A stretch of DNA of 64,000 nt from Candidatus Nomurabacteria bacterium (GCA_023898585.1 CP060229.1:918587-982586), one strand, 5' to 3'; shown: positions 42,559 through 56,299, numbered from the stretch's first letter. The notes: generated from the letters alone by a model not told the origin. Program-made: numbers and translations.

Positions 42559-43791
42559 TCAAAAAAGCTTCCACAAACCCTGGTCTTCTTCTCCGTCAAT
42601 TTTGAAAATAGCCACACCGCGCAGATCGTATTTCTCTGCCAAATTTACCTTATCTTCAATCGCTTCAGAATCGCTCCAGGTCACAAACCGCACTGGAATC
42701 TCCATCTTGGCATGCGTAGCTACCAAAAGCGCCTTGGCGGTTGCTTCGTAGCCCTTTGGCGTGCCTTTGGGAGCGGAGAGTTGATTTAGTACCTTCCAAG
42801 GTGAATCATCTGGGAAGTAAGAAATTACCGCTTCACCCCCTTCAGAGCGACCTATCTTTGAGTTATATTTTTTGGACAACTCAAGAATACGCGGGCTATT
42901 CAAAGTAGCCACTTTTTCATAGTCACGATACCAATCGGGAGCGACCGTAACATCCCAAGCCCGGCCATAAGTCGCCACCCCCAGCATTATTTTATCCTCA
43001 TCAATATCTTCCAGGGCCAATTCTAGCACTTTAGTTACCCATTCATTATCAGCTACCGGCATATATGGTACTCCTTTCCGTTTGTCATTGAGTTTTAAAT
43101 CGGCTCTTTGCTGATCGTAAGCCATGATTTCAACCCAATCACAGTGCTTATTCATAGCCTTGTAATCGTTTGCGTATTTAATTTCGTCAGGGACGGTTCG
43201 CCAACGAGAATCCGGCGGTGTACGTGCCTCGATCGTACAAGTAAGGTCTTTCTTGCCCAGTTCTTTTTTCAACTCCTCAAGAAAATTTGAATAATAGTCA
43301 ATTGTTTCACCCAATTTAGACTCGTAATCAATATTAACACCAGCAAAACGGTACTTTTTAACCATTTTTACTATCTCAGTGACATGTCTTTTACGCGTAG
43401 TCTCGTTACTCAAAACAGCATGGATAGCATCTCCATCAAACCAAGCCACGGTCGGTATAATATCCACTCTCTCACTCTTAGCCTTTCTGAAAAGCTTATC
43501 CCAGTGACTGTCTTTGAAGTTGACACGATTTTTAAGCGTGCCATCTAAATTTACTTCAAACACAAAGGGATAAATGGTGTCGAGTTTATCGATGTTATCC
43601 ATAGTACTCCTGGCCCCGGCTTCTTCAGACCACCACGGTATCCACCCAGCGACTTCCATTTTTGCTTCAGCTTGGGCTAACGGCCAAAGAAAAAACAGGG
43701 CTGTGACAAAAATTCCAATTTTTTTAAAAAATACAGTATTCATACTCATTGTTATTATAGACGAAAAACGAACTCCACTCTTACCGGTCAA
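42559..43791 (-). CDS. Secreted glycoside hydrolase family 18-like (chitinase/YdhD-like) protein.
   Basis: FAGVNIDYE matches the GH18 DG.D.DWE catalytic motif. Signal peptide MNTVFFKKIGIFVTALFFLWPLAQAEA. The likely true start is M15/M17 (about 43743..43749), which removes the overlap with umuD. Confidence 0.65.
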   Translation of the reverse strand: MTGKSGVRFSSIITMSMNTVFFKKIGIFVTALFFLWPLAQAEAKMEVAGWIPWWSEEAGARSTMDNIDKLDTIYPFVFEVNLDGTLKNRVNFKDSHWDKLFRKAKSERVDIIPTVAWFDGDAIHAVLSNETTRKRHVTEIVKMVKKYRFAGVNIDYESKLGETIDYYSNFLEELKKELGKKDLTCTIEARTPPDSRWRTVPDEIKYANDYKAMNKHCDWVEIMAYDQQRADLKLNDKRKGVPYMPVADNEWVTKVLELALEDIDEDKIMLGVATYGRAWDVTVAPDWYRDYEKVATLNSPRILELSKKYNSKIGRSEGGEAVISYFPDDSPWKVLNQLSAPKGTPKGYEATAKALLVATHAKMEIPVRFVTWSDSEAIEDKVNLAEKYDLRGVAIFKIDGEEDQGLWKLF

Positions 43792-44269
43792 AAACTCTGG
43801 CGCTACCTGTTACGACCCCCCAAACAAAACAATCTTCTTGTTCATTGATAAGGATTGGATTATATCCTTCTTTTTCTGAAACTAGTGCCAATTCTTTATT
43901 GGTTTTTTTGAGCCGTTTAACCACTAATTCTCCACATACAGCAGCTACAACAATTGAGCCATTCTTCGCTTCGACCGATCGGTCGACGACTAAGATGTCA
44001 CCATCAAAGATTTTGGCTCCTTCCATGGAATCACCAGATACCCGCACGTAAAAAGTGGCAGTGGGGTTCTTTATCATTAAATCATTCAAATCCAACGGCT
44101 GTTCAACCAAATCGTCACCGGGTGAAGGAAAACCGGCCGCCGGTCTTGAGGAATACAAGTCAATCATTCGCTCACTCTTTACAGAAGCCGGGCGTCTTTC
44201 AACCACTTTTAATCGATCACTAATGCGTGTCATTTGCTTCATAGTACTTAAAAACGACAACTTAGACAA
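43781..44269 (-). CDS. umuD: UmuD-like S24 peptidase (SOS mutagenesis protein; no N-terminal HTH, so not LexA).
   Basis: AAGFPSPGDDLVEQPLDLNDLMIKNPTATFYVRVSGDSMEGAKIFDGDILVVDRSVEAKNGSIVVAAVCGELVVKRLKK aligns well with E. coli UmuD ([50 protein letters not shown]...IVIAAVDGEFTVKKL). Confidence 0.85.
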   Translation of the reverse strand: MSKLSFLSTMKQMTRISDRLKVVERRPASVKSERMIDLYSSRPAAGFPSPGDDLVEQPLDLNDLMIKNPTATFYVRVSGDSMEGAKIFDGDILVVDRSVEAKNGSIVVAAVCGELVVKRLKKTNKELALVSEKEGYNPILINEQEDCFVWGVVTGSARVFDR

Positions 44270-45443
44270 TTATTGCGCCCGCAGTAAGAAGAGAATGTGC
44301 GTACCAAAGACCACCCATGACTACCAACAGAACCAACCCGTAAGCAACTTGGGTAAAACGAAATCGCCTAGCCTCCCAGATAACGGAAATTATCAACAAG
44401 ACAATAACAGTGGTGCCAAGCATCGCATAGACGACCTGGAGTAGTTTATTAGGCATGGTCGCCATAGCCGGCACTCGTGAACCTGCGAATTGATTGTTAT
44501 TGGGCGTGGTGATGTTGGCTATCGCCAATCCGGAAGAAGTGGCAATGGCGGGCGATTCAATAACAACCACATCTTCTAGTAGCACATCTTCCTTGATAAT
44601 TTCTTTTTCAGACTGACTTTTAGCTACAAAATATTCCTCGTGATTATTGTATTGAACATTGCCATTATCGGTTTCTTCTCCACCCACCTTAGCAATTTCT
44701 GTTGTGTTGTTTTCACGAGAACGAGATGATTCTTCTGTTATTGCCGGAACTATAGGAGAACGTATTGCGATTTCCTGTACTGTTCCAGTGGTCGTGGTTG
44801 GGGGAGAAACTTTATCGACAGCAGAAGCAACCATTGGTTTTTCTGTATTATTTTTGTCTTGTATTTGTTTGGAGACAGCCGGTCTGCCAAACAACTGAAC
44901 CACATAAATGGTGTTGTATCCTTCATATTTTCCTTTGGCAGTGCCAACTCCGATCTCGGTATAGTGCTCGTTGACGATGTTTTCTCTGTGAGCCGGTGAC
45001 TCCATCCAGGCTTTTACCACTTCCTCTGAGTCGGTAAAGTGAATAGCTAGATTTTCACCAGCGTAGGCGTAGGCGTAACCAATCTTGTCAAACCAATACC
45101 AAGGCGAAACTCCATCTGGACTGAAATGTGAAAAATACTCATTTTGAGCCATGTGTTGAGCTTTTAGTTCCGCAGCTCGGTCGAGTATGGCGCTTCGCTG
45201 AAGTGGCGTTTCAGACAGACCGGCTCTTTCTTGATTGGTTAGATCAACGACAACCGCTGGCAAAACCGTCGATACCAGCCAGTCGGAAGATTGCCACAAG
45301 ACAGCGTGCAGATTAGCGACGACAAAACTGACCAAGGTCAAGACACCCATGAGAGACATGGATATTTTTTGCAAAACATTTAGGCCACGCAAAGACGGTT
45401 GCATCTCATACATTCTACATGTGATTAGCTGTTTTATAAACAA
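44262..45443 (-). CDS. Membrane-anchored CAP/SCP/PR-1 (YkwD-like) domain protein. The true start is probably an internal ATG (45413 or 45359).
   Basis: CAP motifs ...LTNQERAGLSETPLQRSAILDRAAELKAQHMAQNEYFSH...GENLA...AWMESPAHRENIVNEHYTEIGVG.... N- and C-terminal TM segments. The called TTG start lies inside a terminator palindrome. Confidence 0.75.
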   Translation of the reverse strand: MFIKQLITCRMYEMQPSLRGLNVLQKISMSLMGVLTLVSFVVANLHAVLWQSSDWLVSTVLPAVVVDLTNQERAGLSETPLQRSAILDRAAELKAQHMAQNEYFSHFSPDGVSPWYWFDKIGYAYAYAGENLAIHFTDSEEVVKAWMESPAHRENIVNEHYTEIGVGTAKGKYEGYNTIYVVQLFGRPAVSKQIQDKNNTEKPMVASAVDKVSPPTTTTGTVQEIAIRSPIVPAITEESSRSRENNTTEIAKVGGEETDNGNVQYNNHEEYFVAKSQSEKEIIKEDVLLEDVVVIESPAIATSSGLAIANITTPNNNQFAGSRVPAMATMPNKLLQVVYAMLGTTVIVLLIISVIWEARRFRFTQVAYGLVLLVVMGGLWYAHSLLTAGAIIV

Positions 45444-45493: not shown

Positions 45494-47581
45494 TCAGTCA
45501 TTTATAGCCGGTGCGTTTAAAGCTACATTTGCTGTTAAGTCTTCGCCAGTCAAATCGGGTAGAGCAACGTTTCCAGAACAAACAATGCTGTTTATTTTCC
45601 ACAGTGTTGTCTTATAGACAAATCCGGTCGGTTTGTTATGCGGAACAATCCCTTTTATAAACCAAGGATCAAGAACTTCAGCTTGGTACTTTGCTTGAAA
45701 AGCTCTTACATTGGCGTCTGTTATCTTGCCGAAAACACCAGTTACCGGATTCGGCGCAACAAAAATATTAAGGAACATTTGCAGTTTCTTCACCTCTTCA
45801 GGATCGTTATTAGCACCCATCTGCATATAACCAGTCAAAAACGGACAAAAACTGACGTCTGAGGCCCCAGCGACTTGAGGAACAGGCTTTTTAACTCTAG
45901 TCCCAGTACTCCGACTACCACTTTTTGATTTGGGCTCTTCTTCATCATCCGGGTCAGTTTCTCCAACAAACACGTTGTTGAATTCACAACGATAGGTAGG
46001 TTCATCGTTAATTAGGGACTGTTCAATTTGTTTATACAAAATCGGATACAATTCAAAACTACACAGCTCTTCATCAGCCTCAGTTTCAACCAGAGAACCA
46101 TTTTTAAATACTTCTGTCTGCATCCAGTCTACTGGTAACATTTCATACACATCCCAGCTTCCACTCGCCACGTCAAAGTAAAAATATCCGTTTGTATCAG
46201 TCGTGGTACTTAGTGGTGGATTAATGCCGTCTGAAGCGTAGATTACCCATTCTGCGAGTGGTACTCGGATTTCATCTTCCACTTTGTATTTGTAGCCATC
46301 GAGTCGGTAAGTAGTTGGCTTTGGGTCAGGATCAGGGTCTTTTTCGGGAATGTACGGTATGTCACAATTTTCCCCTTCTCCATGAATAACCAACTCATAG
46401 TACAAGCCGGCTGGATTTAATTCAGGATTTGCGTCACCGGCAAAATTCTCCACCACTACCTCTAACTCGTTATTTCCACCAGCAATCAAGCCTGTTACGT
46501 TATAGCTTTTTGTGGCGTCGAAATTAAACTCAGTCAAATCCTCGCCGGCAGTAGTACCGTTGACTTTAGCGGAAAAACTGTTGTCCGCCGCTATGATGAG
46601 CTCCGCACCGGTTACAACATCACCGCCCCACCCAAATCGACTAATAAAAGTCTGAGTTTCCGGATTTAGTGGGTCAACTGGGCCATCGTCACCCCAAATC
46701 CAATCTGAATCAGTGAGACTTGTCGTCCAAGAAGAGTGGATAAATGATAACTCGACTGCATTGGCTCCACCTTTCTCGACTACGGTGTTGCTGTTATTAC
46801 TGGTTAATTTTACGGTACAAAGAGTCGGTTTAGGATCGGGACCAGACTCCGGGCACTCGTTATTGTCTAGCCACCACGAACCAGGCTGACCACCATACAT
46901 TACATCCAGATTTTGACCTCCATAATCACCAACAACAGGTATAATGCTTCCATCATTTTCATCCGAGGAACCATAAACATCACCAATACTGCTAATAGGG
47001 ACATCAATAAAAGAAAAACTTCCTTCCGCAAAGTGGCAAATACTGACTTTCTCCTCCACCCAATCTCCTTTTAACTCGACCGACCTTAGAAAAACTTGGT
47101 CGCTTTCGTTACCGGGAACAGCTGTTACGTAAACATAGACCTCCAAATCTGCAACTTGAGCCTCAACTGGTAGCGCTATCGAAACAAAACCTTGTTCGGC
47201 AGAAGTTTCTCCCACCAGTCCTACGATGGTAGCTATATCATTATCACCGCCGGAATCACGCCAACCATAGGTGAAGCTGTCGTCAGTACCATCAAGCTCG
47301 GTGGAATCGTAATAAAAAGAAAACACTAAATTTTCGTAACTTGATGCATCGACTATGCCCGAATTGTAGGGTTGTGTCCCTTCTACAGTCTTAGTAGGAA
47401 CAGTAATTAAAAATGTTGAGGCTTCGGCAACAGAGAACGCGAGCGGGAAAGTGGCCAAAAATATGGTCGTTGTCGTTGTTATGGCAATTAATTTGGTCGT
47501 GATCTCTTGTCTAGATAAAGTAAATATGTTCATAAACCGATAAATAATAATTGCGGTAATAAAGCAAATATAATAAACCAC
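45494..47581 (-). CDS. Secreted large protein with a C-terminal peptidoglycan-binding domain (PG_binding_1-like).
   Basis: C-terminal ...EEVKKLQMFLNIFVAPNPVTGVFGKITDANVRAFQAKYQ... fits the PG_binding_1 pattern (LQ..L......DG.FG..T..AV..FQ). Signal peptide from MNIFTLSRQ.... Confidence 0.65.
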   Translation of the reverse strand: MVYYICFITAIIIYRFMNIFTLSRQEITTKLIAITTTTTIFLATFPLAFSVAEASTFLITVPTKTVEGTQPYNSGIVDASSYENLVFSFYYDSTELDGTDDSFTYGWRDSGGDNDIATIVGLVGETSAEQGFVSIALPVEAQVADLEVYVYVTAVPGNESDQVFLRSVELKGDWVEEKVSICHFAEGSFSFIDVPISSIGDVYGSSDENDGSIIPVVGDYGGQNLDVMYGGQPGSWWLDNNECPESGPDPKPTLCTVKLTSNNSNTVVEKGGANAVELSFIHSSWTTSLTDSDWIWGDDGPVDPLNPETQTFISRFGWGGDVVTGAELIIAADNSFSAKVNGTTAGEDLTEFNFDATKSYNVTGLIAGGNNELEVVVENFAGDANPELNPAGLYYELVIHGEGENCDIPYIPEKDPDPDPKPTTYRLDGYKYKVEDEIRVPLAEWVIYASDGINPPLSTTTDTNGYFYFDVASGSWDVYEMLPVDWMQTEVFKNGSLVETEADEELCSFELYPILYKQIEQSLINDEPTYRCEFNNVFVGETDPDDEEEPKSKSGSRSTGTRVKKPVPQVAGASDVSFCPFLTGYMQMGANNDPEEVKKLQMFLNIFVAPNPVTGVFGKITDANVRAFQAKYQAEVLDPWFIKGIVPHNKPTGFVYKTTLWKINSIVCSGNVALPDLTGEDLTANVALNAPAIND

Positions 47582-47913: not shown

Positions 47914-48588
47914 TCATAATATTGTCTTTGGTCTACCAGAATTTCTTGTCGACGCCAGGAGTCCATACCGCTCTACGGTATCAAGAACATATTCTTCATC
48001 ACCATATGGCGTACTTTTTTGTTCTGACCCCTCAAGTTTTTCAATTTCCTTTGGAGACATTGGCTGGGTAAGCAAATCTAGATAATCACTTGGTTCTTCA
48101 ATCACCCAAGGAGACAAAAGCTTTTTTTGTTCTTCCTTTCCATTGTATCGTCGATAGACACTAGAGTATTTCCAGTCCAGTGGATTGGTCACTAATTTTG
48201 CTGTGAGGGGATTTCGTTCGACGTAGCGTAAAACAGTAAGTAGATGCAGGTCATCTTGAATGATGAATGACTTGTATCGTCCCTGATACAAACTACCAGA
48301 TCCATGAGTTTTGTTTTTCGCATGCCATCTACTGGCATGAGTTTGGGTAAACCATTTCATTAACTGGGACATCTCTCCATCTTGTTTGGTTTTGATTACT
48401 ATATGAAAATGGTTTGGCATTACACAATATGCCAGTATGTTGGATTGATAGATGTCCCAAGCGTCTTGGAGTACTTCCTCAAACAACTCGTAGTCTTCCT
48501 TGCTGTTAAAGATTTGTAGTCGTGCGTTTGCTCGGTTGATTATGTGGTAGTAGTTTTCTCCGATATCTAACCTTGGTGTTCTTGCCAT
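47914..48588 (-). CDS. IS200-like / COG1943 HuH tyrosine (Y1) transposase, REP-associated (RAYT)-type.
   Basis: HuH motif MPNHFHIVI and a Tyr block YQGRYKSFIIQDDLHLLTVLRYVERNPLTAKLV (compare COG1943 WQRSFYDH.I.DEE.L...YI..NPVK.GLV). Flanked by inverted REP-like repeats. Confidence 0.85.
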   Translation of the reverse strand: MARTPRLDIGENYYHIINRANARLQIFNSKEDYELFEEVLQDAWDIYQSNILAYCVMPNHFHIVIKTKQDGEMSQLMKWFTQTHASRWHAKNKTHGSGSLYQGRYKSFIIQDDLHLLTVLRYVERNPLTAKLVTNPLDWKYSSVYRRYNGKEEQKKLLSPWVIEEPSDYLDLLTQPMSPKEIEKLEGSEQKSTPYGDEEYVLDTVERYGLLASTRNSGRPKTIL

Positions 48589-48762: not shown

Positions 48763-50205
48763 TTAAATTTTGGAATTTGTATATGTAGTATACAAATACA
48801 TGAGGCCAAAAACTGTCACTATTAGATAAGGTAAGGGGTGGCAAATGTAAGGAGTGAGAAGTGAAACCAACATCGGAATTATTGGAAAAATCATCAAGTA
48901 TAAAGCTTCCTTTCTTGGTAACCAACCAGGATGTTTACGCCGTGCCAATTGATCAACCAAAACGGACACCAACCAAACCGCAAAGAAAACCAATCCCGCA
49001 CCGACTGAAGATATGAGATAAATCCAAATCCCCGCCAGGACAAACAATGTCCATATGAAAACCATGAGTCTGCCGTGCCTGTATTGTTCTGATGACACGG
49101 AACTTTTGAAGTCTTTGTAAAACACCCTTAATAAGACACCTATACTGAGTATCAGTGGCCACAAGATTGAGCAGACGCCATTACTTGAAAAAGGAGCGGG
49201 GAGAGTTTTTTCAGTGTCTACATCACCCCTTTCACCAATTGGGTTCTCTGGAGTGGTGGTTGATGATTCATCAGAACTTGTTGACTCCCCTTTAACCATA
49301 CCCAGGGACCCGAAACCGGATTGCGAAAAGGCCGGTTGTTGGTTATCAATAAAAGTAAAATTGGTGGCCGAAACACCGGCTACTTCTCCCGACGGAATGC
49401 CAAAACGGACTGCTTCTCCGACAGTAAAACTATCAGATTGATTACGTCTTCCGGCCGGACGACACTCGTACCGACCGGCAGAAAGACCGGTCAAGATCAT
49501 TGAATGAGACACGTCATCGGTCAATTCTTCCGGCAAGAAAAAATCGTAACCGAAAAACGGTTCTTCCGGGCTTAATGAGAAAGAATCACCCTCAAGTCTT
49601 CCACAAACCAGGTAGCTACTTGAATCACGGTTGGAATTCCAAGTTACATTCACGTCACCCTCACCTAGATTTACTAGAGCTTGCTCATTAAACAACCTCA
49701 GAGGATCTGTTATTCTTGTGCCACTTTGCGAAGACCCTTGTCTATTACTGACTGTTTCTCCCCCCTTAAAACCGATTATTAGATCAAAACCCATGGTTTT
49801 TTCCTGCCACACATTTTCAGAACCTGAGGGTAGACTGGCAGTAAAATAGTACGTTTTTTGTTCTCCTTCCGATAATTGACCGAGGTCAACGGGCAAATTG
49901 TTGAAAAAATTAGCAAAAGTATCAGAAAAAATAACGTTGTTTGATTCCGCTATCTCAAGCGACATGACGGAAGACAAACCGTCGCTAAAAACATCGCTCG
50001 CCCCCACTTGCACCAATTCCGTTTGTTCATTTGTATTTCGTACAACGACAGTTCGACTAACTGAATCGCCGGGCAAAATTTCAGTATTCACAAAAAGGGG
50101 CGATTCTTCAAAAGTAACCTCAAGAGAGGCAGATGCAGGTAATGGCAAAAAAACCAGTGAAGCCACAGCAATACTCAAGATTTTGACTGTATTCATAAAT
50201 TTCAT
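48763..50205 (-). CDS. TasA/camelysin-like extracellular domain fused to a C-terminal polytopic (about 4-5 TM) membrane anchor. It is the last gene of the sipW operon.
   Basis: Signal peptide then ASASLEVTFEESPLFVNTEILPGDS... (weaker SipW-cognate-like). Acidic/Ser-rich middle. C-terminal TM helices (VCSILWPLILSIGVLL, LMVFIWTLFVLAGIWIYLISSVGAGLVFFAVWLVSVLV, LYLMIFPIIPMLVSLL, LPYLIVTVFGLMYLY). 4-bp start/stop overlap with the LTD gene. Confidence 0.55.
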   Translation of the reverse strand: MKFMNTVKILSIAVASLVFLPLPASASLEVTFEESPLFVNTEILPGDSVSRTVVVRNTNEQTELVQVGASDVFSDGLSSVMSLEIAESNNVIFSDTFANFFNNLPVDLGQLSEGEQKTYYFTASLPSGSENVWQEKTMGFDLIIGFKGGETVSNRQGSSQSGTRITDPLRLFNEQALVNLGEGDVNVTWNSNRDSSSYLVCGRLEGDSFSLSPEEPFFGYDFFLPEELTDDVSHSMILTGLSAGRYECRPAGRRNQSDSFTVGEAVRFGIPSGEVAGVSATNFTFIDNQQPAFSQSGFGSLGMVKGESTSSDESSTTTPENPIGERGDVDTEKTLPAPFSSNGVCSILWPLILSIGVLLRVFYKDFKSSVSSEQYRHGRLMVFIWTLFVLAGIWIYLISSVGAGLVFFAVWLVSVLVDQLARRKHPGWLPRKEALYLMIFPIIPMLVSLLTPYICHPLPYLIVTVFGLMYLYTTYTNSKI

Positions 50206-51635
50206 AGTATTTCTTCCTTGATTTGCACTTCCGGTTCTTCAATTACCTCCTTTGGTCTGCTTGCCGATTCTAATTCTTCCTCCACGAGTTGAGGTTCTTC
50301 CTCTTTTTCGGTCTGTTCTAACTCTATATCGTCGTCTTTTCCCTTGTCGATCGCATCCTCGTCTTCCAACTTCATTTCTTCATCTTTAGTCTCAAGATCA
50401 ATCTCTTCACTTTCATCATAGACGGGTTCTTCTACTTCTAAACTTTCCGGATCTTCCTTTGTAACAGACTCAACAACATCTGATTCTGACCCTGAGTTTT
50501 CTTCACTAGATTCGCCTTCTTGTATCGCTGAATTATCGACAAAAGGAGGAGTTTCACTTTCACCAACTCCTTCATTCACGCTTTCTTCAGCTTTTTCTTC
50601 ATCTTCGTCTGTCACTGACATTTGATCGGACAATGACTGTGATAATTTTACCAAGTCCGCTTCGGTTGCAATGTTTGGTTCATTTGGAGTCGGAATCGGA
50701 TCTACCCACAAACCGGTGCCATCAGGCACTCGCGCATCAGAATTACCCTCCTTGGCTGTCTCATAAGTATAAGAATCAACTATTTTTGATTGTGAGTCGA
50801 TTAGAGTAACGGTATCACCGTCGTTATTTAAATACTGACTATTGCCGTTGAAACGTAGAGCGAGAAAACCATTAGCTGGTACGGTGGTCGCTCCACTACC
50901 ATCGTAAGCAATGAGGTCTGAAGCTCCCGTTGGGGTACTCTTGATAATATGTTCAGTCACAGCCCCAGAACCGGTGAGTTCGGTAATAATCCAGCCCGCC
51001 ACATCAACCGGCTCGTTCGCGTTGTTGTAAAGTTCTATAAACTCACGATCAATTCCATCCGGATCCGCCAGTATTTCGTTTAAAACCACAGTTCTCGCCC
51101 CCACTTCAAATGCAACTTCACGCAAATCACGATAACCGGCGTCATGTCTGTCCATATTCGACTGCCATGTCTCTATGCTAAAAGTGACAGAGCACGAAGC
51201 ACCGTGTTTAAAATTTAGTTGACTATCATCGTAAGCTATCTGAAAAATCCAATTTCCGAAAGTCGAAATTTCGGTAGTGGTAAAGGAGTCAACCAGACCA
51301 CTGACACTAAGACCGCCATTTCTTCCAACCAAAGATAGGCTACTACAAAAAGCATCGTCTCCGTTCGCTGAAGATTCGATAACATAGAGTGAATCGACAC
51401 TAGTCGATGAAGTGTTTATTGTGAGAGAAAATATTGAGGTATTCTGGTGTCCGGGACCCAAGTAGATGTCGTTAATCTCGCTTTCTATATCCAGAACCAA
51501 TTCCGAGGCTGTGAACGACTGTTCTTTGGTCGTTTCGACGTCGGATAAAAAAGCTAGCGATATGTTAGGTAAAAAAAGCACAATAAAAACAGCCGGGGGG
51601 AAGATTTTTCTTAATTGTGACTGATTAATATTCAT
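50202..51635 (-). CDS. Secreted protein with a SipW-cognate signal peptide, a TasA-like N-domain, a lamin tail domain (LTD) and a highly acidic Glu/Asp-rich C-terminal tail.
   Basis: LAFLSDVETTKEQSFTASELVLDI matches the SipW-cognate motif (AFFSDTE.S.GN.F.AG..DL). LTD: VVLNEILADPDGIDREFIELYNNANEPVDVAGWIITELTG...NDGDTVTLIDSQSKIVDSYTY (nt about 50700..51100). Acidic tail nt about 50205..50645. Confidence 0.8.
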   Translation of the reverse strand: MNINQSQLRKIFPPAVFIVLFLPNISLAFLSDVETTKEQSFTASELVLDIESEINDIYLGPGHQNTSIFSLTINTSSTSVDSLYVIESSANGDDAFCSSLSLVGRNGGLSVSGLVDSFTTTEISTFGNWIFQIAYDDSQLNFKHGASCSVTFSIETWQSNMDRHDAGYRDLREVAFEVGARTVVLNEILADPDGIDREFIELYNNANEPVDVAGWIITELTGSGAVTEHIIKSTPTGASDLIAYDGSGATTVPANGFLALRFNGNSQYLNNDGDTVTLIDSQSKIVDSYTYETAKEGNSDARVPDGTGLWVDPIPTPNEPNIATEADLVKLSQSLSDQMSVTDEDEEKAEESVNEGVGESETPPFVDNSAIQEGESSEENSGSESDVVESVTKEDPESLEVEEPVYDESEEIDLETKDEEMKLEDEDAIDKGKDDDIELEQTEKEEEPQLVEEELESASRPKEVIEEPEVQIKEEIL

Positions 51636-52216
51636 ATGCTCTCTGATTCTGAAAAAATCTTTTTACGATTCCTTACTTCCGCTACAATATTGCCTATTTC
51701 CTCAAAAGCGATAAACCCGGCCGGAATGCCGATTAATAGTGCAAAACCTAAGGGTTGACGGGCAAAATCAAGCAAATATCCAAGGAAAGGGAGAGACAAT
51801 ATCACTTTACCTCGAACTGAATCAACATCGACCAATTTCTCGTCCGGAGTCGCATTAGCATCACCCTTTGTCTCATAACTCAATTTACCTTCGCTGATGG
51901 AATCGGAAATGATTCTATGCGTGGTTGGCAAACTTGAGGCAAAGTCGCCACCAAAGGTGATGACATCACCAACTTCATATCGCTCAAACTTCTTTACCAC
52001 CACCAGACTACCAATAGGGATGGCTGGTTCCATAGATCCTGACTGTACGATCCTGACTTCATAGCCGGGCAAAATCGCTGTCTGCATGAGAAGTAATAGG
52101 GCACCAAAACCCAACACTACTAAAGCCAGGGTGTAATAACCTATTTTGAAAAGCAATTTCATGTTATTCCGACCAGCCATCGTGGGCTGGATGGTGGGGC
52201 GGTGGCCTTCGGCCAC
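51632..52216 (-). CDS. sipW: Signal peptidase I, SipW (archaeal/ER-type S26B). The likely true start is the ATG at 52162.
   Basis: N-terminal TM YYTLALVVLGFGALLLLMQTAILPGYEVRIVQSGSMEPAIPIGSLVVV (catalytic SGSMEP), plus a C-terminal TM. Flanked by genes with SipW-cognate signal peptides. The first 18 codons of the called ORF are occupied by a strong hairpin. Confidence 0.8.
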   Translation of the reverse strand: MAEGHRPTIQPTMAGRNNMKLLFKIGYYTLALVVLGFGALLLLMQTAILPGYEVRIVQSGSMEPAIPIGSLVVVKKFERYEVGDVITFGGDFASSLPTTHRIISDSISEGKLSYETKGDANATPDEKLVDVDSVRGKVILSLPFLGYLLDFARQPLGFALLIGIPAGFIAFEEIGNIVAEVRNRKKIFSESESI

Positions 52217-52224
52217 CGCCCCAC
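52173..52224 (-). promoter_or_regulatory. Intra-operon GC-rich stem-loop(s) between the tasA-like gene and sipW. One has a 14-bp perfect stem (gtggggcggtggcc/ggccaccgccccac) and an adjacent one has a 6-bp stem (ccagcc/ggctgg), with no U-tract.
   Basis: Perfect inverted repeat at 52194..52224 with a 3-nt loop. Second hairpin at 52173..52190. Located 19 nt after the tasA-like stop and about 10 nt before the sipW ATG. Confidence 0.45.
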
Positions 52225-52242
52225 GACCAACTCAAGAAGTAA

Positions 52243-53571
52243 TTAAGGTTCGAGTACAGGATTCAAATCATCTTCACAACTGAACTCATCGTTGTTTCTT
52301 GTTTGCACTGCGTAAAACTTCAAGTCAGCCAAGAAACTGTCAGTCTGAGTCTGGTTAATATTGACGACATTGCCGTTACACACTCCGGTATTACTTAGAC
52401 TACCAAGACACCAGGTCAATTTGATGTATTCGGTAGTGTTTGGTGCAACCGGCAAATGAGATGAGTTACTGTCGGCAAAAGTGATATTGTTTAGATTTTC
52501 CAAAGTGGTTGGAGGAAACATTTGACTCAACTCATTTCCATTTACATCACTGTACCAACCCATTACCATCAGATACTTACCTAGTTCCCCTTGTGGCACA
52601 CTGACATCACCGGCTTCTTGTTCAGGGTCAACATTAGTATTCTCATTGTCTTGCTTATTCTCAACAGCGAGACACAAGTACGCTTCATTACTATCTACAT
52701 GCATAGATATTAGATTAGTTCCTTCGTCCTGTGGTTTTACATCGTAGAATTTAAAGAACTTTTCTGTTGTCAGGTCTGTTGTATCCCAAAGCTGACAAAA
52801 ACCACCCGGTGTATTTACATAAGTACCTTCCTCACACAACAGTTGACGGACAGAAACATCATCCAGGTAGCCACCATAACTGTTATTCGCATTACCCTCA
52901 TCACTGAAAGTTACTTTAGTGCTAGCGTCCACTGCCACGAAATCAAAGGTGTACTTTGTCCAGTTAGTATTCGCTCCTCCGGCATCTCCGGCCCCAACCT
53001 GGCCACTAATAATAGTAGAAGGACCGCTTACCACTTCAACTTTATAACCGATCGTATTATCGCCCGCTACCACACCCGGTCGTGGTGAGTGCCAGAAAGT
53101 AAGACGGTATTTTTCGCCCGGTACTGTGACTAGAGTTTGACTCATAGCCGATTGATCATAGCTATCAAGTTCTACCAATTGTGATCCGCCATGTGGCGCT
53201 CCGGCTGCGTTATTTTGCACTTCAATTCCAGCACCACTTTCAACCGTCCAACCAGGTATGTTTGACGGAAAGACTTGCCAAGCCCCATTGTTAAGAGCCG
53301 GGTCTTCAAAGCCTCCATTGACAATCAGATCTCCGCCCACTTCTTCACAATCATTGACACAGGATTCTCCATTGTACGTAGCTTCGGTATGGTCGATTTT
53401 TAGATCAACCGCACCGGCAGTAAAGACATTTCCAGATGAAGTTTCAGTATCGCTAAAGAAAGCCCCCGTACCTCCAACAATCACGGCCAGTGAAGCGACT
53501 AGTATCAGACTACTACCAATAATTCTTTTCATAAATTTGCTTAAATAATAAATTAAAGAGCTAATAACCAA
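52243..53571 (-). CDS. TasA/camelysin (M73)-like secreted protein with a canonical SipW-cognate signal peptide (paralog 2).
   Basis: MKRIIGSSLILVASLAVIVGGTGAFFSDTETSSGNVFTAGAVDLKID. The likely start is M14 (about 53532). The N-terminal 45 aa are near-identical to 53652..54569. Confidence 0.75.
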   Translation of the reverse strand: MVISSLIYYLSKFMKRIIGSSLILVASLAVIVGGTGAFFSDTETSSGNVFTAGAVDLKIDHTEATYNGESCVNDCEEVGGDLIVNGGFEDPALNNGAWQVFPSNIPGWTVESGAGIEVQNNAAGAPHGGSQLVELDSYDQSAMSQTLVTVPGEKYRLTFWHSPRPGVVAGDNTIGYKVEVVSGPSTIISGQVGAGDAGGANTNWTKYTFDFVAVDASTKVTFSDEGNANNSYGGYLDDVSVRQLLCEEGTYVNTPGGFCQLWDTTDLTTEKFFKFYDVKPQDEGTNLISMHVDSNEAYLCLAVENKQDNENTNVDPEQEAGDVSVPQGELGKYLMVMGWYSDVNGNELSQMFPPTTLENLNNITFADSNSSHLPVAPNTTEYIKLTWCLGSLSNTGVCNGNVVNINQTQTDSFLADLKFYAVQTRNNDEFSCEDDLNPVLEP

Positions 53572-53651
53572 CTAAATGACTGATTTCCCCTTCAGCCCAC
53601 CCAACCCCAGTTGAAACTGAGGTTGGGAACGACCAAATACAAAATTTGAGA

Positions 53652-54569
53652 TTATCGATCAAAACAACTGAATTCGTCGTTGTTTCGTGACTGCTCAACC
53701 CGGAAAGCAATACTGGCTTCCATGGTGTCGGTTTGAATGATGTTTCCGAGATTGGAACCATCGCAAGTGATTGTGTTGCCTACAACAACCTGATCTCCTG
53801 CACACCAGGCAAGTCCGATGTAATTGGTGGTAAGAGGAGCGATTGGGTTGCTGTTGTTAAGACCTGGCATAGCTAGAGGATATGTCTTACCCCCAAGAAC
53901 ATCACTCGCCGGACCGGAATCATTGGAGAAAAGAAGTGGTTCTGCGTCATCTCCTTGCCAGATATTATCTCCTTCCCCTGGGTCATCATTACCAGTGTCT
54001 TCATCTGAATTCTGCCATCCTGGGGTATTTCCTTGATCAAGCCAGGCGGCAAACTTGATATTTTCCGCCAACTCTCCATCGAAGTCATTGTTTGCGTCTT
54101 CTTGCACATCACCAGTTCCATCAAGTTCTGGTTCATTTGAAGAGAAATCATCATTTTTAGTCACCTCTACATCCACACAGGCCCAGGCTGGGTTGTTGTC
54201 AATGTGTAATGAGATGGTGTTTTCTCCTTCGTCACCAGGCTTAACATCGTTGTACGTGAAGAAAGTCTTTGCACCCAAATCGGTTGCTTCCCAGGTTCCT
54301 GTACATGGAAGTCCGACTGGATATTCAGTACCCCCTAACCAAAGGTATTCCGTATCGTCTTGATCACCATCATAATCATTGACATCAACCTGACACATAC
54401 TACCGTTGTAGTGCGCTTCACTATCCACTGTCAAATCAATAGCTCCAGCGGTAAATACGTTGCCGGTTGAAGTCTCTGTGTCGCTGAAGAAAGCGCCGGT
54501 GCCCCCAACCACCACCGCTCCAACAAAGACCAACATGCCTAAACTCATCATTAATCGTGCTTTGTTCAT
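53652..54569 (-). CDS. TasA/camelysin (M73)-like secreted protein with a canonical SipW-cognate signal peptide (paralog 1). It is the first gene of the sipW operon.
   Basis: MNKARLMMSLGMLVFVGAVVVGGTGAFFSDTETSTGNVFTAGAIDLTVD. An AT-rich promoter-like region lies upstream (54570..54640). Confidence 0.75.
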   Translation of the reverse strand: MNKARLMMSLGMLVFVGAVVVGGTGAFFSDTETSTGNVFTAGAIDLTVDSEAHYNGSMCQVDVNDYDGDQDDTEYLWLGGTEYPVGLPCTGTWEATDLGAKTFFTYNDVKPGDEGENTISLHIDNNPAWACVDVEVTKNDDFSSNEPELDGTGDVQEDANNDFDGELAENIKFAAWLDQGNTPGWQNSDEDTGNDDPGEGDNIWQGDDAEPLLFSNDSGPASDVLGGKTYPLAMPGLNNSNPIAPLTTNYIGLAWCAGDQVVVGNTITCDGSNLGNIIQTDTMEASIAFRVEQSRNNDEFSCFDR

Positions 54570-54642: not shown

Positions 54643-54666
54643 AAAAAAACGCATTGAAATTGCGTT
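54643..54666 (-). terminator. Rho-independent terminator on the minus strand (aacgcaatttcaatgcgtt + T7), ending the ECF sigma / anti-sigma transcription unit.
   Basis: 6-bp stem aacgca/tgcgtt with a 7-nt loop, followed on the minus strand by TTTTTTT. It immediately follows the stop of the small ORF 54672..54869. Confidence 0.55.
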
Positions 54667-54789
54667 GTTTATTAGTTGCCTCTCTCATTACTCGTAACTG
54701 TCATGGTACTCTTGATTATACCACCCAAGCTGTCATCCTTCCAAATTTTCACTGAGTTTATGTAACCTACCTTACGTCCTTCGTAATAT

Positions 54790-55701
54790 TTAAGGCATGC
54801 GACGAACGACGGCCAATCTGGAACACTTACTTTGAACTGGTTGTAAGTTAGAGACAGAAGTGGGTTCATCGGAAAAATTAGGCCTCTCGATTGCCTCTTT
54901 AGCTATTTCATTCATCTTAACGATAAATTCCTTTCTTTCTTCATTCATTCTCGCCGGAGAAATGTTCCTGCCCATCATCCAAGGAAAAGCTCCACAGGCA
55001 TGAAAATTGTGCAGTTTACTGTTTGTTGTGGTTCCTAACAACCTGACTTTCTCGTTTGATGCCAACAGCTGGAGATCTCGTTCGTTTAACTCGCTGACAT
55101 CGAGCGTCCAACGTTGACCACTGACATCTTCGAAAACCACTATTTTCGAGGGCAAAACTGAGACATAAACTTGTTTACCAAGTAATCTTCCTTGGCCGGA
55201 CGATTGCCACATTTCATGTTCCAGTTTCTCTTGAGATCCGTACATTTTCATGTGTCGACCCAAGGCATCGTCAACGACATAACCAAAACCAAAAAATTGC
55301 AATGTCGATCCTCCGAAAAGACTTAAAAATAGACTGCTAAGCAAAATTGTTGAAACAGAGTAACGATAGCCGTGTTTTGTGTGGCGGATGTTAAATACCG
55401 CTACGTATACCATCAATCCAAAAATGACAAACCACAGATACGGCAACACGTCAATAATGAAAGTGAAGAAATTATCGTGCGTGGCTTCATACAGTGCGTA
55501 ATGATGATGGGAGACCACGAACAAAGACACAGCAACAGCGAAAGCCCCAACCACAATCGAGATTGTCCACAAAAACCAAACGAAACATTCTCTTCCTTGG
55601 AACAGAAAGCGGGAATGGGGACAAACATTTTCAGAATCAATCCGCTCAAATAAGGAGGACTTGAGTGATTTTTGAGGTGTTTTTTGTTCAGTTGAATTCA
55701 T
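54790..55701 (-). CDS. Membrane protein (about 4 TM), a candidate anti-sigma factor partner of the upstream ECF sigma.
   Basis: Directly downstream (13-bp gap) of the ECF sigma gene. Several TM helices and a C-terminal soluble domain. No recognisable anti-sigma motif by eye. Confidence 0.45.
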   Translation of the reverse strand: MNSTEQKTPQKSLKSSLFERIDSENVCPHSRFLFQGRECFVWFLWTISIVVGAFAVAVSLFVVSHHHYALYEATHDNFFTFIIDVLPYLWFVIFGLMVYVAVFNIRHTKHGYRYSVSTILLSSLFLSLFGGSTLQFFGFGYVVDDALGRHMKMYGSQEKLEHEMWQSSGQGRLLGKQVYVSVLPSKIVVFEDVSGQRWTLDVSELNERDLQLLASNEKVRLLGTTTNSKLHNFHACGAFPWMMGRNISPARMNEERKEFIVKMNEIAKEAIERPNFSDEPTSVSNLQPVQSKCSRLAVVRRMP

Positions 55702-55714
55702 AAACTTAGTGATT

Positions 55715-56299
55715 TTATATACGTATAGTCTTCGGATTTAGGACAGTCGCTAATTGTTTTTTGCCTCTGTGCAGTAATGTGCCTACCGAACCAACCGGTA
55801 TTTTCAAAATGTCTGAGATCTCCTCGTATTCTTTATGTTCAAAAAAACGAAGGATAATAACCTCACGATATCTATCGTCGATTTTCTGCAAAGCATCATT
55901 GACCAAATTTGCGTTGACAGTCTTGTCAAAAACCTCATCCGCCGACTCGGTTTTAGCACTTAGGAAGGAAATAATTTCTTCACTATCCGCGATCAAATGA
56001 CCCTCGGGACGCACGTTCTTCCGACGGTACCAGCTAACGGCTTCGTTATGGGCAATTCTGTAAATCCATGAAGAAAATTGCAATGATGTGTCAAAACCAT
56101 TGAGATTCTTGTAGGTTTTAAGAAAAATATCCTGTAGAACATCTAACTGATCGTCATTATTGAGAACACCGAGACGGGCGATATAGCGAGTCAATTTGGC
56201 TTGATAGCGATCTACCAAATCACCAAAATAACTCTTGTTCTCAAGAGTCATACGAACCAATTCTTCATCACTGGGCGGTAATTGTGGCAATTGTTTCAT
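55715..56299 (-). CDS. RNA polymerase sigma factor, ECF (sigma-70 family, regions 2 and 4).
   Basis: Region 2 ...DIFLKTYKNLNGFD...FSSWIYRIAHNEAVSWYRRK.... Region 4 ...YREVIILRFFEHKEYEEISDILKIPVGSVGTLLHRGKKQL. Confidence 0.85.
   Translation of the reverse strand: MKQLPQLPPSDEELVRMTLENKSYFGDLVDRYQAKLTRYIARLGVLNNDDQLDVLQDIFLKTYKNLNGFDTSLQFSSWIYRIAHNEAVSWYRRKNVRPEGHLIADSEEIISFLSAKTESADEVFDKTVNANLVNDALQKIDDRYREVIILRFFEHKEYEEISDILKIPVGSVGTLLHRGKKQLATVLNPKTIRI

What the first reader, a model, noticed from the sequence alone, without database searches (positions are those of the whole stretch)
48763..54569. Expanded SipW operon with four cognate substrates, including an LTD fusion and a membrane-anchored TasA-like protein
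Five co-directional genes have 4-bp start/stop overlaps at 51632..51635 and 50202..50205. Two are TasA/camelysin-like paralogs whose N-termini are near-identical, with the SipW-cognate motif GAFFSDTETS.GNVFTAGA.DL. Then comes SipW, with a catalytic SGSMEP motif. Next is a protein with the same class of signal plus a TasA-like N-domain, a lamin-tail domain (…NEILADPDGIDREFIELYNN…VDVAGW…) and a 150-aa poly-acidic tail. Last is a TasA-like ectodomain fused to a 4-5 TM C-terminal anchor. This resembles tapA-sipW-tasA but with different accessory components. The LTD/acidic protein and the polytopic anchored member could be the fibre nucleator and cell anchor. An ECF sigma / anti-sigma pair (54790..56299) lies immediately upstream on the same strand and may control the operon.
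Basis: partly seen in the sequence, partly recalled or inferred. Interest (0 to 1): 0.62.

Follow-up and report, generated by a model that had tools for sequence, protein, structure and literature searches.

The report
Anchored TasA-like fibre operon in Kaiserbacteria
An ultrasmall (candidate phyla radiation) bacterium has a five-gene cluster encoding a dedicated signal peptidase, two TasA-like secreted subunits, a lamin-tail-domain accessory protein and a membrane-anchored partner; the same layout recurs across this bacterial group and probably builds a cell-attached surface fibre.

Summary
The five minus-strand genes, both ATGA overlaps, the SipW-type motifs, the LTD, the acidic tail and the polytopic anchor are all real. 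The source is a Candidatus Kaiserbacteria MAG.

G1 and G2 pass TIGR04088 and PF12389, but only over the signal and N-terminal strand. G3 is an ER/archaeal-type signal peptidase I like SipW. G4 has a degenerate SipW-type N-terminus, a beta-sandwich, an LTD and a 151-aa tail that is 39% D/E.

G5 is not a fourth cognate substrate. It has an ordinary AxA signal and no donor-strand motif. Its two Ig/FN3-like domains resemble WxLIP rather than TasA, although its first domain is homologous to G4's.

The main new result is synteny. In 33 patescibacterial genome loci, SipW sits directly upstream of the G4-type gene in 27/31, a SipW-signal protein lies upstream in 26/26, and a G5-type gene follows in 24/27. 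G5-type proteins nearly always end in a membrane anchor: one TM, LPXTG with a sortase, or polytopic.

The ECF sigma pair lies behind a terminator and is linked only in close relatives.

Best reading: a membrane-anchored, TasA-like donor-strand fibre module. It is a new variant of a known kind. Polymerisation is inferred, not shown.

The parts
55715..56299 (-). ECF-type sigma factor. It is a neighbouring transcription unit. The link to the module is positional and holds only in close relatives.
   Evidence: TIGR02937 98.8 bits (cutoff 42.9); Sigma70_r2 and r4_2. Found upstream in L007, L008, L009 and L011 only, 4 of 18 loci.
54790..55701 (-). Putative anti-sigma membrane protein, 303 aa. The role is inferred from position only.
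   Evidence: No Pfam or NCBIfam hit. Homologues sit directly after the sigma gene in L007, L009 and L011.
54648..54666 (-). Intrinsic terminator hairpin followed by a T-run. It lies between the anti-sigma gene and G1 and separates the two transcription units.
   Evidence: An equivalent A-run/hairpin/T-run lies upstream of the first TasA-like gene in L007, L009 and L011.
53652..54569 (-). G1: TasA-like major subunit candidate, 305 aa. It has a SipW-type signal, a conserved mature N-terminus AFFSDTETSTGNVFTAGAIDL, and a jelly-roll-like core with six invariant Cys.
   Evidence: TIGR04088 26.4 bits, PF12389 28.8 bits. 1985 homologues, and the best 120 listed are 50-76% identical. Model pLDDT 81, pTM 0.76, residues 15-41 below pLDDT 50. 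Foldseek TasA fibre 8aur_A prob 0.93, E 9e-3.
53600..53627 (.). 13-bp stem hairpin in the G1-G2 intergenic region. A possible attenuator or mRNA stabiliser (inferred).
52243..53532 (-). G2: G1 paralogue (429 aa from the ATG at 53532) with a DUF642 / choice-of-anchor-C-like domain inserted in the loop after the first strand.
   Evidence: TIGR04088 27.3 bits; PF12389 26.5 bits; DUF642 E 1.1e-9, residues 82-242 of the 442-aa ORF. BLASTP against G1. Gene-caller start.
52194..52224 (.). Perfect 14-bp GC-rich hairpin with a 3-nt loop between G2 and G3. Unique in the window.
51632..52162 (-). G3: SipW-like ER/archaeal-type signal peptidase I. It is 176 aa from the ATG at 52162; the ORF extends to a GTG at 52216. 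It has N- and C-terminal TM segments and the motifs SGSMEP, THRI and TKGDAN.
   Evidence: TIGR02228 95.9 bits (cutoff 51.85). SEC11C/A alignment, E 1e-6. Its stop overlaps the G4 start.
50202..51635 (-). G4: accessory protein. It has a degenerate SipW-type N-terminus (AFLSDVETTKEQSFTASELVLDI), a beta-sandwich N-domain (~44-178), an LTD (181-292) and a 151-aa acidic tail.
   Evidence: PF00932 E 1.4e-13. Family consensus AYFxDTExSxxNxFxAxxLDF. HHalign to the G1 signal region, E 2.8e-11. Relatives hit PF12389 positions ~15-80 and TIGR04088. Tail composition.
48763..50205 (-). G5: membrane-anchored partner. It has an AxA signal peptide, an Ig-like domain (28-153) homologous to the G4 N-domain, an FN3-like domain (171-270), a disordered linker (274-341) and a 5-helix C-terminal membrane domain (343-479).
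   Evidence: Model. HHalign to G4, prob 93.7%, E 2e-7. Foldseek WxLIP E 1.8e-8. Family of 2747 representatives. C-terminal anchors.
44262..45443 (-). CAP-domain secreted protein, a frequent downstream neighbour of the module. Here it is displaced by the RAYT gene and a 695-aa protein.
   Evidence: PF00188 E 1.4e-19. A homologue lies within 5 kb downstream on the same strand in 10 of 22 loci.

Best explanation
This is the Kaiserbacteria version of a module found across Patescibacteria. The module most likely builds a cell-attached fibre of the TasA (donor-strand-exchange) type.

Shown:
- The dedicated ER-type signal peptidase G3 is translationally coupled to G4 and G5.
- It is preceded by one to three genes for G1-type proteins.
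- The most conserved block of G1-type proteins is the stretch just after the predicted cleavage site. By sequence this corresponds to the TasA donor strand.

Inferred mechanism:
- G3 cleaves G1, G2 and G4 just before AF(F/L)SD and frees that N-terminal strand.
- G1 polymerises head-to-tail by inserting the strand into the next subunit.
- G2 co-assembles and displays a DUF642 lectin-like domain.
- G4 carries the same kind of strand on a different beta-sandwich, plus an LTD and an acidic tail. It acts like TapA, as the minor nucleator or adaptor subunit.
- G5 has a domain homologous to G4's, no donor strand, and a C-terminal membrane anchor. It holds the assembly on the cell.
- The hairpins after G1 and G2 would keep subunit mRNA in excess over the accessory genes.
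For: Family assignments:
- G1 and G2 pass TIGR04088 and PF12389. G3 passes TIGR02228. G4 has an LTD.
- G3 aligns with SEC11 across the catalytic motifs.

Donor strand:
- TasA's donor strand is residues 28-38, immediately after the SipW cleavage site, with F29, I32 and F39 as contacts (PMC9674648).
- G1 residues 26-46 (AFFSDTETSTGNVFTAGAIDL) are invariant or nearly so in 48 homologues.
- Residues 15-41, which include most of this strand, are not packed on the domain in the model, with pLDDT below 50.

Fold of G1:
- The G1 core is a jelly-roll-type beta-sandwich. TasA fibre 8aur_A is the hit with the highest Foldseek probability (0.93).

Links between the proteins:
- The G4 family shares the signal and strand with G1 (E 2.8e-11).
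- The G4 family shares its beta-sandwich with G5 (prob 93.7%).

Synteny in 33 genome loci:
- SipW is adjacent upstream of the G4-type gene in 27/31.
- A SipW-signal protein lies upstream in 26/26.
- A G5-type gene is adjacent downstream in 24/27.
- The overlapping starts and stops are also kept in relatives.

Anchor:
- 138 of 144 G5-type representatives have a C-terminal TM segment and none has the motif.
- Variants carry LPNTG or LPKTG, or have an adjacent sortase.

Other support:
- G1-type relatives carry VWA and SpaA-like pilin or adhesin domains.
- One Kaiserbacteria protein fuses SipW to a motif-plus-LTD protein.
Against: - No polymer has been shown or modelled, and no multimer prediction was possible.
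- PF12389 covers only the N-terminal 36-46 residues of G1 and G2.
- Structural similarity of G1 to TasA is weak: E 9e-3, TM 0.32-0.40, and no PDB hit below 1e-3.
- HHalign of the G1, G4 and G5 profiles against the TasA sequence is not significant.
- G4 and G5 show no detectable homology to TapA.
- The PGD strand motif that G5 shares with TasA also occurs in DUF11-type Ig repeats.
- How G4 and G5 contact each other or the fibre is entirely inferred.
Confidence: 0.55

Rival explanations
1. This is surface display without a fibre. G1, G2 and G4 are monomeric secreted adhesins or cell-surface proteins that share a dedicated SipW-type peptidase. The conserved N-terminal block is only a peptidase recognition and retention element. 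G5 is a membrane-anchored receptor that holds them on the cell, as WxLIP holds WxL proteins in Firmicutes.
For: - The best structural matches of G5 are WxLIP chains (9i25_C, E 1.8e-8).
- G5 has the same layout as WxLIP: two Ig-like domains and a C-terminal TM (PMC10599100).
- The similarity of G1 to TasA is weak.
- G1-type relatives carry adhesin-type domains such as VWA, SpaA-like and DUF642.
Against: - G5 has no PF06030 (WxLIP) hit, and no WxL domains are present.
- The conserved block lies on the mature side of the TasA-type cleavage site and matches the TasA donor strand position.
- Several G1 paralogues in tandem is the usual arrangement for major and minor fibre subunits.
Confidence: 0.27
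2. This is a released matrix or biofilm scaffold as in Bacillus. The TasA-like proteins are shed into an extracellular matrix. G5 is an unrelated co-transcribed surface protein and not an anchor for them.
For: The classical tapA-sipW-tasA products form a matrix (PMC9674648). Nothing here shows a G1-G5 contact.
Against: - G5 is adjacent to the G4-type gene in 24/27 loci, with overlapping start and stop codons.
- G5's first domain is homologous to the G4 N-domain.
- These links are hard to explain for an unrelated gene.
Confidence: 0.1
3. The label-driven readings are correct. Either G1 and G2 are camelysin-type metalloproteases (Peptidase_M73), or they are ribosomally synthesised peptide precursors with a SipW-like signal, as JGI names some homologues.
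For: The Pfam family name, and the JGI product names on homologues.
Against: - The M73 match is only the signal and first strand.
- G1 and G2 have no HExxH motif (sequences).
- The proteins are 300-430 aa folded beta-sandwich domains, not short precursor peptides.
Confidence: 0.03

Closest known systems
Bacillus subtilis tapA-sipW-tasA operon (TasA donor-strand-exchange fibres)
   Same: - A dedicated ER-type signal peptidase is encoded beside its substrates.
- The substrates share the AF.D...F..G..DL block that forms the TasA donor strand.
- There is a major jelly-roll subunit, plus a minor accessory protein with the same N-terminus on a different beta-sandwich (G4 here, TapA there).
   Different: - The gene order differs: subunits first, then sipW, then the accessories.
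- There are two or three subunit paralogues, some with inserted or appended domains.
- The accessory protein has an LTD and a long acidic tail and shows no detectable homology to TapA.
- A fourth, membrane-anchored component (G5) has no Bacillus counterpart.
- G3 scores below the Bacillus SipW equivalog cutoff (95.9 against 190).
Bacillus cereus sipW-tasA-calY with CapP (PMC13082335)
   Same: Two TasA-type paralogues co-assemble into heterofilaments. A cell-wall-located accessory protein tunes the assembly. The system does not depend on a sortase.
   Different: CapP is specific to the B. cereus group. Here the accessories are an LTD protein and an Ig/FN3 membrane protein. Some relatives of this module do use a sortase or LPXTG for the anchor.
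Archaeal bundling pili AbpA/AbpB (Pyrobaculum; PMC9245690)
   Same: A TasA-like jelly-roll pilin polymerises by strand donation. A multi-domain beta-rich accessory protein is encoded next to it. Several membrane proteins with four TM segments sit in the operon.
   Different: There is no dedicated signal peptidase in the archaeal operon. No sequence relationship was tested here.
WxLIP (DUF916-DUF3324-TM) of Enterococcus/Listeria WxL clusters (PMC10599100; PDB 9i25)
   Same: G5 has the same architecture: a signal peptide, two tandem Ig-like domains and a C-terminal TM anchor. WxLIP is also the top Foldseek hit (E 1.8e-8). It is a membrane-tethered holder of secreted partner proteins.
   Different: G5 has no Pfam PF06030 match. 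TM-scores are low (0.20/0.34). No WxL partners are present. G5's anchor here is polytopic.

Membership tests
SipW-dependent-type signal peptide (TIGR04088) | HMM score at or above the curated cutoff of 19 bits | tested here: met
   G1 scores 26.4 and G2 scores 27.3.
SipW-dependent-type signal peptide (TIGR04088), applied to G4 | HMM score at or above the curated cutoff of 19 bits | tested here: inconclusive
   G4 itself gets no hit at E<=0.1. Family members P0032 (21.7) and P0084 (26.2) pass, while P0025 and P0038 fall below the cutoff. The G4 family profile aligns to the G1 signal and strand at E 2.8e-11.
SipW-dependent-type signal peptide (TIGR04088), applied to G5 | HMM score at or above the cutoff, or presence of the AF.D..S..N.F motif | tested here: not met
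   No hit. No signal-profile hit in any G5-type ORF. 0 of 144 representatives have the motif. An AxA site directly precedes the first conserved strand.
TasA/camelysin family (Pfam PF12389 Peptidase_M73) | HMM score at or above the gathering score of 22.5 bits | tested here: met
   G1 scores 28.8 and G2 scores 26.5. All 48 aligned homologues match. The match covers only profile positions ~6-51 of 196.
TasA/camelysin family | Jelly-roll core superimposable on TasA (5OF1/8AUR) | tested here: inconclusive
TasA/camelysin family | Polymerisation by N-terminal donor-strand exchange | not testable with these tools
   Only sequence correspondence to TasA residues 28-46 and low model confidence over residues 15-41, which include most of that strand.
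ER/archaeal-type signal peptidase I (TIGR02228), the SipW class | HMM score at or above 51.85 bits, with Ser/His/Asp motifs | tested here: met
   95.9 bits. SGSMEP, HRI and TKGDAN align with SEC11A/C.
Bacillus SipW equivalog (NF046067) | HMM score at or above 190 bits | tested here: not met
   95.9 bits. G3 belongs to the same class but is not an orthologue-level match.
Lamin tail domain (PF00932) | HMM score at or above 34.3 bits | tested here: met
   G4 scores 51.6 bits, E 1.4e-13, residues 181-292.
TapA (TasA anchoring/assembly protein) | Sequence homology of the central beta-sandwich to TapA residues 44-190 | tested here: not met
   HHalign of the G4 and G5 family profiles against the PDB-validated TapA sequence gave prob <1%. 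The resemblance is in architecture only.
WxLIP (PF06030 + DUF3324 + TM) | Pfam match to the WxLIP domains | tested here: not met
   No Pfam hit for G5 apart from a sub-threshold DUF3054 match. The structural resemblance comes from Foldseek only.
Sortase/LPXTG-anchored surface protein | LPXTG-type motif, then a hydrophobic segment and a basic tail, with a sortase nearby | tested here: not met
   The window's G5 ends in a 5-helix domain, and no sortase is in the cluster. Relatives differ. In L017 the G5-type protein has LPNTG and an adjacent sortase. In L009-L011 short-form G5-type proteins have one TM, a basic tail and an adjacent sortase but no LPXTG motif. L024 has LPKTG but no sortase hit in the locus.
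ECF sigma / anti-sigma pair | Sigma70 r2 and r4 domains with TIGR02937 at or above 42.9 bits; a partner with a recognisable anti-sigma domain | tested here: inconclusive
   The sigma is met at 98.8 bits. The partner has no family hit, so its role rests on position and on co-conservation in three related genomes.

The most novel reading that the evidence does not exclude
Patescibacteria possess a phylum-wide surface organelle that has not been described. It would be a membrane-anchored, chaperone-free donor-strand-exchange fibre. Its base is a dedicated subunit (G5 type) that has the acceptor fold but no donor strand and is fixed to the cell by interchangeable anchors (polytopic, single TM or LPXTG with a sortase). 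An LTD-bearing, TapA-like adaptor (G4) joins that base to a shaft of highly conserved TasA-like subunits, which display adhesin domains such as DUF642, VWA and SpaA-like. This would be a second attachment system beside type IV pili for episymbiotic life.
Probability: 0.3. Interest if true: 0.75.

Novelty: new variant of a known kind. Interest (0 to 1): 0.5.

Why it matters
Candidate phyla radiation bacteria live attached to other cells. So far only type IV pili have been tied to that attachment. This module is large and conserved: about 2000 G1-type and 2700 G5-type cluster representatives. It offers a second, testable candidate for a surface appendage.

It would also extend TasA-type fibres from matrix scaffolds to a cell-anchored, pilus-like form with a defined base. 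The anchor swapping seen in one orthologous protein is a clean natural experiment on how monoderm cells tether fibres.

The parts are already annotated one by one in public records, and TasA homologues in Patescibacteria have been noted in a survey (PMC9245690). The news is therefore the system-level architecture, not a new principle.

Tried and rejected
- phmmer of G1 against PDB sequences found nothing. The G5 profile against PDB gave only spurious membrane-protein matches.
- HHalign of the G1, G4 and G5 profiles against the validated TasA sequence was not significant. All three did align on the 'nlkPGD' strand.
- HHalign of the G4 and G5 profiles against validated TapA 44-190 found nothing.
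- I compared regions upstream of the sigma genes and of the first TasA-like genes in four genomes, looking for a shared ECF-type promoter. No common motif was evident by eye.
- I tested whether the GC-rich hairpin after G2 is a REP element of the nearby RAYT transposase. It occurs only once in the window.
- A '(Q/E)VAG(A/V)S' linker motif is shared by G5 and the 695-aa protein. It is not conserved across the G5 family (12 of 40 ORFs, mostly copies of the same species) and not clearly above shuffles.
- Literature searches for SipW, lamin tail or camelysin together with Patescibacteria or CPR terms found only the PF12389 survey in PMC9245690.
- The camelysin-protease and RiPP-precursor readings were rejected; see the rival explanations.

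Full report
**What is there**

Nearly all genes in the window lie on the minus strand. The region holds five consecutive ORFs:
- G1, 53652..54569, 305 aa.
- G2, 52243..53571. Public gene calls start it at the ATG at 53532, giving 429 aa.
- G3, 51632..52216. Gene calls give 176-182 aa.
- G4, 50202..51635, 477 aa.
- G5, 48763..50205, 480 aa.

The G3/G4 and G4/G5 junctions are both ATGA overlaps. The exact G4 protein is found on a contig of GCA_020428745.1 and on several metagenome contigs with the same gene order. NCBI names the source Candidatus Kaiserbacteria.

**The parts**

G1 and G2:
- Both pass the SipW-cognate signal model TIGR04088 (26.4 and 27.3 bits; cutoff 19).
- Both pass Pfam PF12389 (28.8 and 26.5 bits; cutoff 22.5). 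That match covers only the signal and the first strand.
- They are paralogues: 61% identical over the first 66 residues and 34% over the C-terminal core.
- G2 has a DUF642 / choice-of-anchor-C-like domain inserted after the first strand.

G3:
- It is an ER/archaeal-type signal peptidase I (TIGR02228, 95.9 bits; cutoff 51.85).
- Its closest solved relatives are human SEC11A/C, aligned across SGSMEP, HR and TKGD(A/N)N.
- It is below the Bacillus SipW equivalog cutoff.

G4:
- It has an LTD (E 1.4e-13) and a 151-aa tail with 59 D/E and 11 K/R.
- Its N-terminus fails TIGR04088.
- An alignment of 58 family members shows the canonical consensus AYFxDTExSxxNxFxAxxLDF.
- Some members pass TIGR04088 and hit PF12389 positions ~15-80.
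- The family profile aligns with the G1 signal and strand at E 2.8e-11.
- The acidic tail is a family property: median 135 aa, 29.5% D/E, 1.5% K/R, and a TM-like segment in only 2 of 56.

G5:
- It has no family hit above threshold.
- Its AlphaFold model has a confident beta-sandwich at 28-153 (pLDDT 83-95 for residues 41-130), an FN3-like domain at 171-270, a disordered linker, and five helices at 343-479. The charged loops fit a positive-inside topology.
- Its first domain is homologous to the G4 N-domain (HHalign prob 93.7%, E 2e-7, 112 columns).
- It shows no significant similarity to G1.
- Foldseek ranks WxLIP (9i25_C, E 1.8e-8), RbmA and transglutaminase beta-barrels highest. No TasA entry is in the top 50.
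- In all 13 aligned homologues an AxA-type site directly precedes the first conserved strand L.V.FE..PLF, so the AFFSD-type segment is absent.

**Is G1 TasA-like?**

The G1 model is good (pLDDT 81, pTM 0.76), except for residues 1-41. Its PDB matches are all weak, with none at E<1e-3. They are jelly-roll folds, and TasA fibre 8aur_A has the highest probability (0.93; TM 0.32/0.40).

HHalign against it was not significant for any of the three families.

The sequence correspondence is clearer at the N-terminus:
- TasA is cleaved before A28. Residues 28-38 form the donor strand, with F29, I32 and F39 as contacts (PMC9674648).
- G1 residues 26-46 (AFFSDTETSTGNVFTAGAIDL) align with TasA AFNDIKSKDATFASGTLDL.
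- This is the most conserved block in 48 homologues.

So the 'SipW-cognate signal' is largely the donor-strand region. Membership of the TasA family is met by the HMM criterion, inconclusive for the fold, and untestable here for polymerisation.

**Synteny**

Three distinct relatives were found through G5 homologues. They keep this order:
- sigma and anti-sigma;
- variable genes;
- TasA-like gene(s);
- a small signal peptidase;
- the LTD protein;
- the G5 homologue;
- CAP, S24 and GH18 genes.

A genome-collection scan with the G4 family alignment returned 80 loci. I called ORFs in them and searched with profiles of each part. Among 33 loci with a G4-type gene (N-domain plus LTD):
- SipW is directly upstream in 27 of 31 with room.
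- A SipW-signal protein lies upstream in 26 of 26, with the G1-type core in 17 of those.
- A G5-type gene is directly downstream in 24 of 27.

The record titles name Nomurabacteria, Paceibacterota, Sungiibacteriota, Falkowbacteria, Zambryskibacteria, Taylorbacteria, Moraniibacteriota and 'Saccharibacteria'-labelled MAGs.

Family sizes are large:
- The G1 family has about 1985 hits, and the best 120 listed are 50-76% identical. Relatives carry appended VWA or SpaA-like domains.
- The G5 family has 2747 representatives at E<=1e-3.

**The anchor**

G5-type proteins end in different anchors:
- A polytopic domain, as here and in L007.
- One TM plus a basic tail with an adjacent sortase (L009-L011).
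- LPNTG with an adjacent sortase (L017).
- LPKTG or LAPTG plus a TM (L024, L022).
- A plain single TM.

Of the top 144 full-length representatives, 138 have at least one C-terminal TM segment and none has the SipW motif. This is strong evidence that G5 is the cell-bound member.

**Regulation**

An intrinsic terminator (54666..54648, minus strand) lies between the anti-sigma gene and G1. Equivalent terminators sit upstream of the first TasA-like gene in L007, L009 and L011. The sigma pair is therefore a separate transcription unit.

It is found upstream in only 4 of 18 loci, all close relatives. In L009 and L011 two other genes intervene. I could not find a shared promoter motif. Control by the ECF sigma is possible but unsupported.

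Strong hairpins follow G1 (53600-53627) and G2 (52194-52224; a perfect 14-bp stem, unique in the window). I infer that they attenuate read-through or stabilise the subunit mRNA.

**Interpretation**

The best-supported reading is a TasA-type fibre module with a dedicated peptidase, in which:
- G1 is the major subunit.
- G2 is an adhesin-displaying paralogue.
- G4 is a TapA-like minor subunit. It has the same N-terminal strand on a different beta-sandwich, as TapA does (PMC9245690, PMC9674648). No homology to TapA is detectable.
- G5 is the membrane anchor.

The main rival is non-filamentous display of SipW-processed adhesins held by a WxLIP-like receptor (PMC10599100). Polymerisation and all subunit contacts are inferred.

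**Novelty**

PF12389 homologues in Patescibacteria were already noted in a survey (PMC9245690). NCBI labels individual members 'TasA family protein', 'SipW-dependent-type signal peptide-containing protein' and 'lamin tail domain-containing protein'.

I found no paper in the searchable library that describes the four-part module, the LTD accessory protein or the anchored partner. I therefore rate it a new variant of a known kind, of moderate interest.

Noticed in passing
window 9071..32653 (-): A giant 7860-aa ORF. Its Pfam hits are DUF2341 (E 5e-23 and 1e-24 on the two halves), a pentaxin/LamG-like domain and an Ig_Rha78A_N domain. It is probably a giant surface protein.
   Followed up: partly
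window 47914..48588 (-): A REP-associated tyrosine transposase (Y1_Tnp, NF047646) sits directly downstream of G5. With the 695-aa protein it separates G5 from the CAP gene, which in relatives follows G5 or its sortase. In L009-L011 this position holds a sortase.
   Followed up: partly
window 45494..47581 (-): A 695-aa secreted protein with a C-terminal PG_binding_1 domain. Its central region (~150-430) is homologous to part of a ~1090-aa protein encoded just upstream of the TasA-like genes in L009 and L011. It is also homologous to domains inserted in G1-type proteins in L013 and L017. Cargo domains seem to be shared between these surface proteins.
   Followed up: partly
window 54715..54744 (-) and 54648..54666 (-): The best sigma-70-like promoter match of the region (TTGGAA, 18-nt spacer, TATAAT, with an extended -10 TG; 10/12) lies about 45 nt upstream of the terminator that precedes G1. 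This could be a short leader or small RNA, or a chance match.
   Followed up: no
protein P0088 (Candidatus Kaiserbacteria RIFCSPHIGHO2_01_FULL_56_24): A 566-aa protein fuses a SipW-type peptidase (res 5-164), a SipW-type signal and motif (IAYFSDIERSIGNIFRAG, res 237-275), an LTD and a Pro/Glu-rich tail. It is either a real peptidase-substrate fusion or a merged gene call. Either way it links SipW to the LTD protein.
   Followed up: partly
window 43781..44269 (-) and 39970..41256 (-): An S24 (UmuD/LexA-like) peptidase and a Y-family polymerase (IMS, IMS_C, DUF4113) lie downstream of the CAP gene. A GH18 gene and an unknown gene sit between them. The same arrangement occurs in L009-L011.
   Followed up: no
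loci L009-L011, G5 homologues P0009, P0012 and P0013: The short-form G5 proteins next to a sortase have no LPXTG. They share the motif VLG(D/E)Q(I/V)SxWPxxG ahead of a TM segment and a basic tail. This may be an unusual sorting signal for the adjacent patescibacterial sortase.
   Followed up: no
G1 family alignment A3: Six invariant cysteines (C59, C89, C131, C256, C269 and C302 in G1) suggest three disulfides. The family is unusually conserved for a surface protein, with the best 120 listed hits 50-76% identical and spanning several patescibacterial lineages.
   Followed up: no
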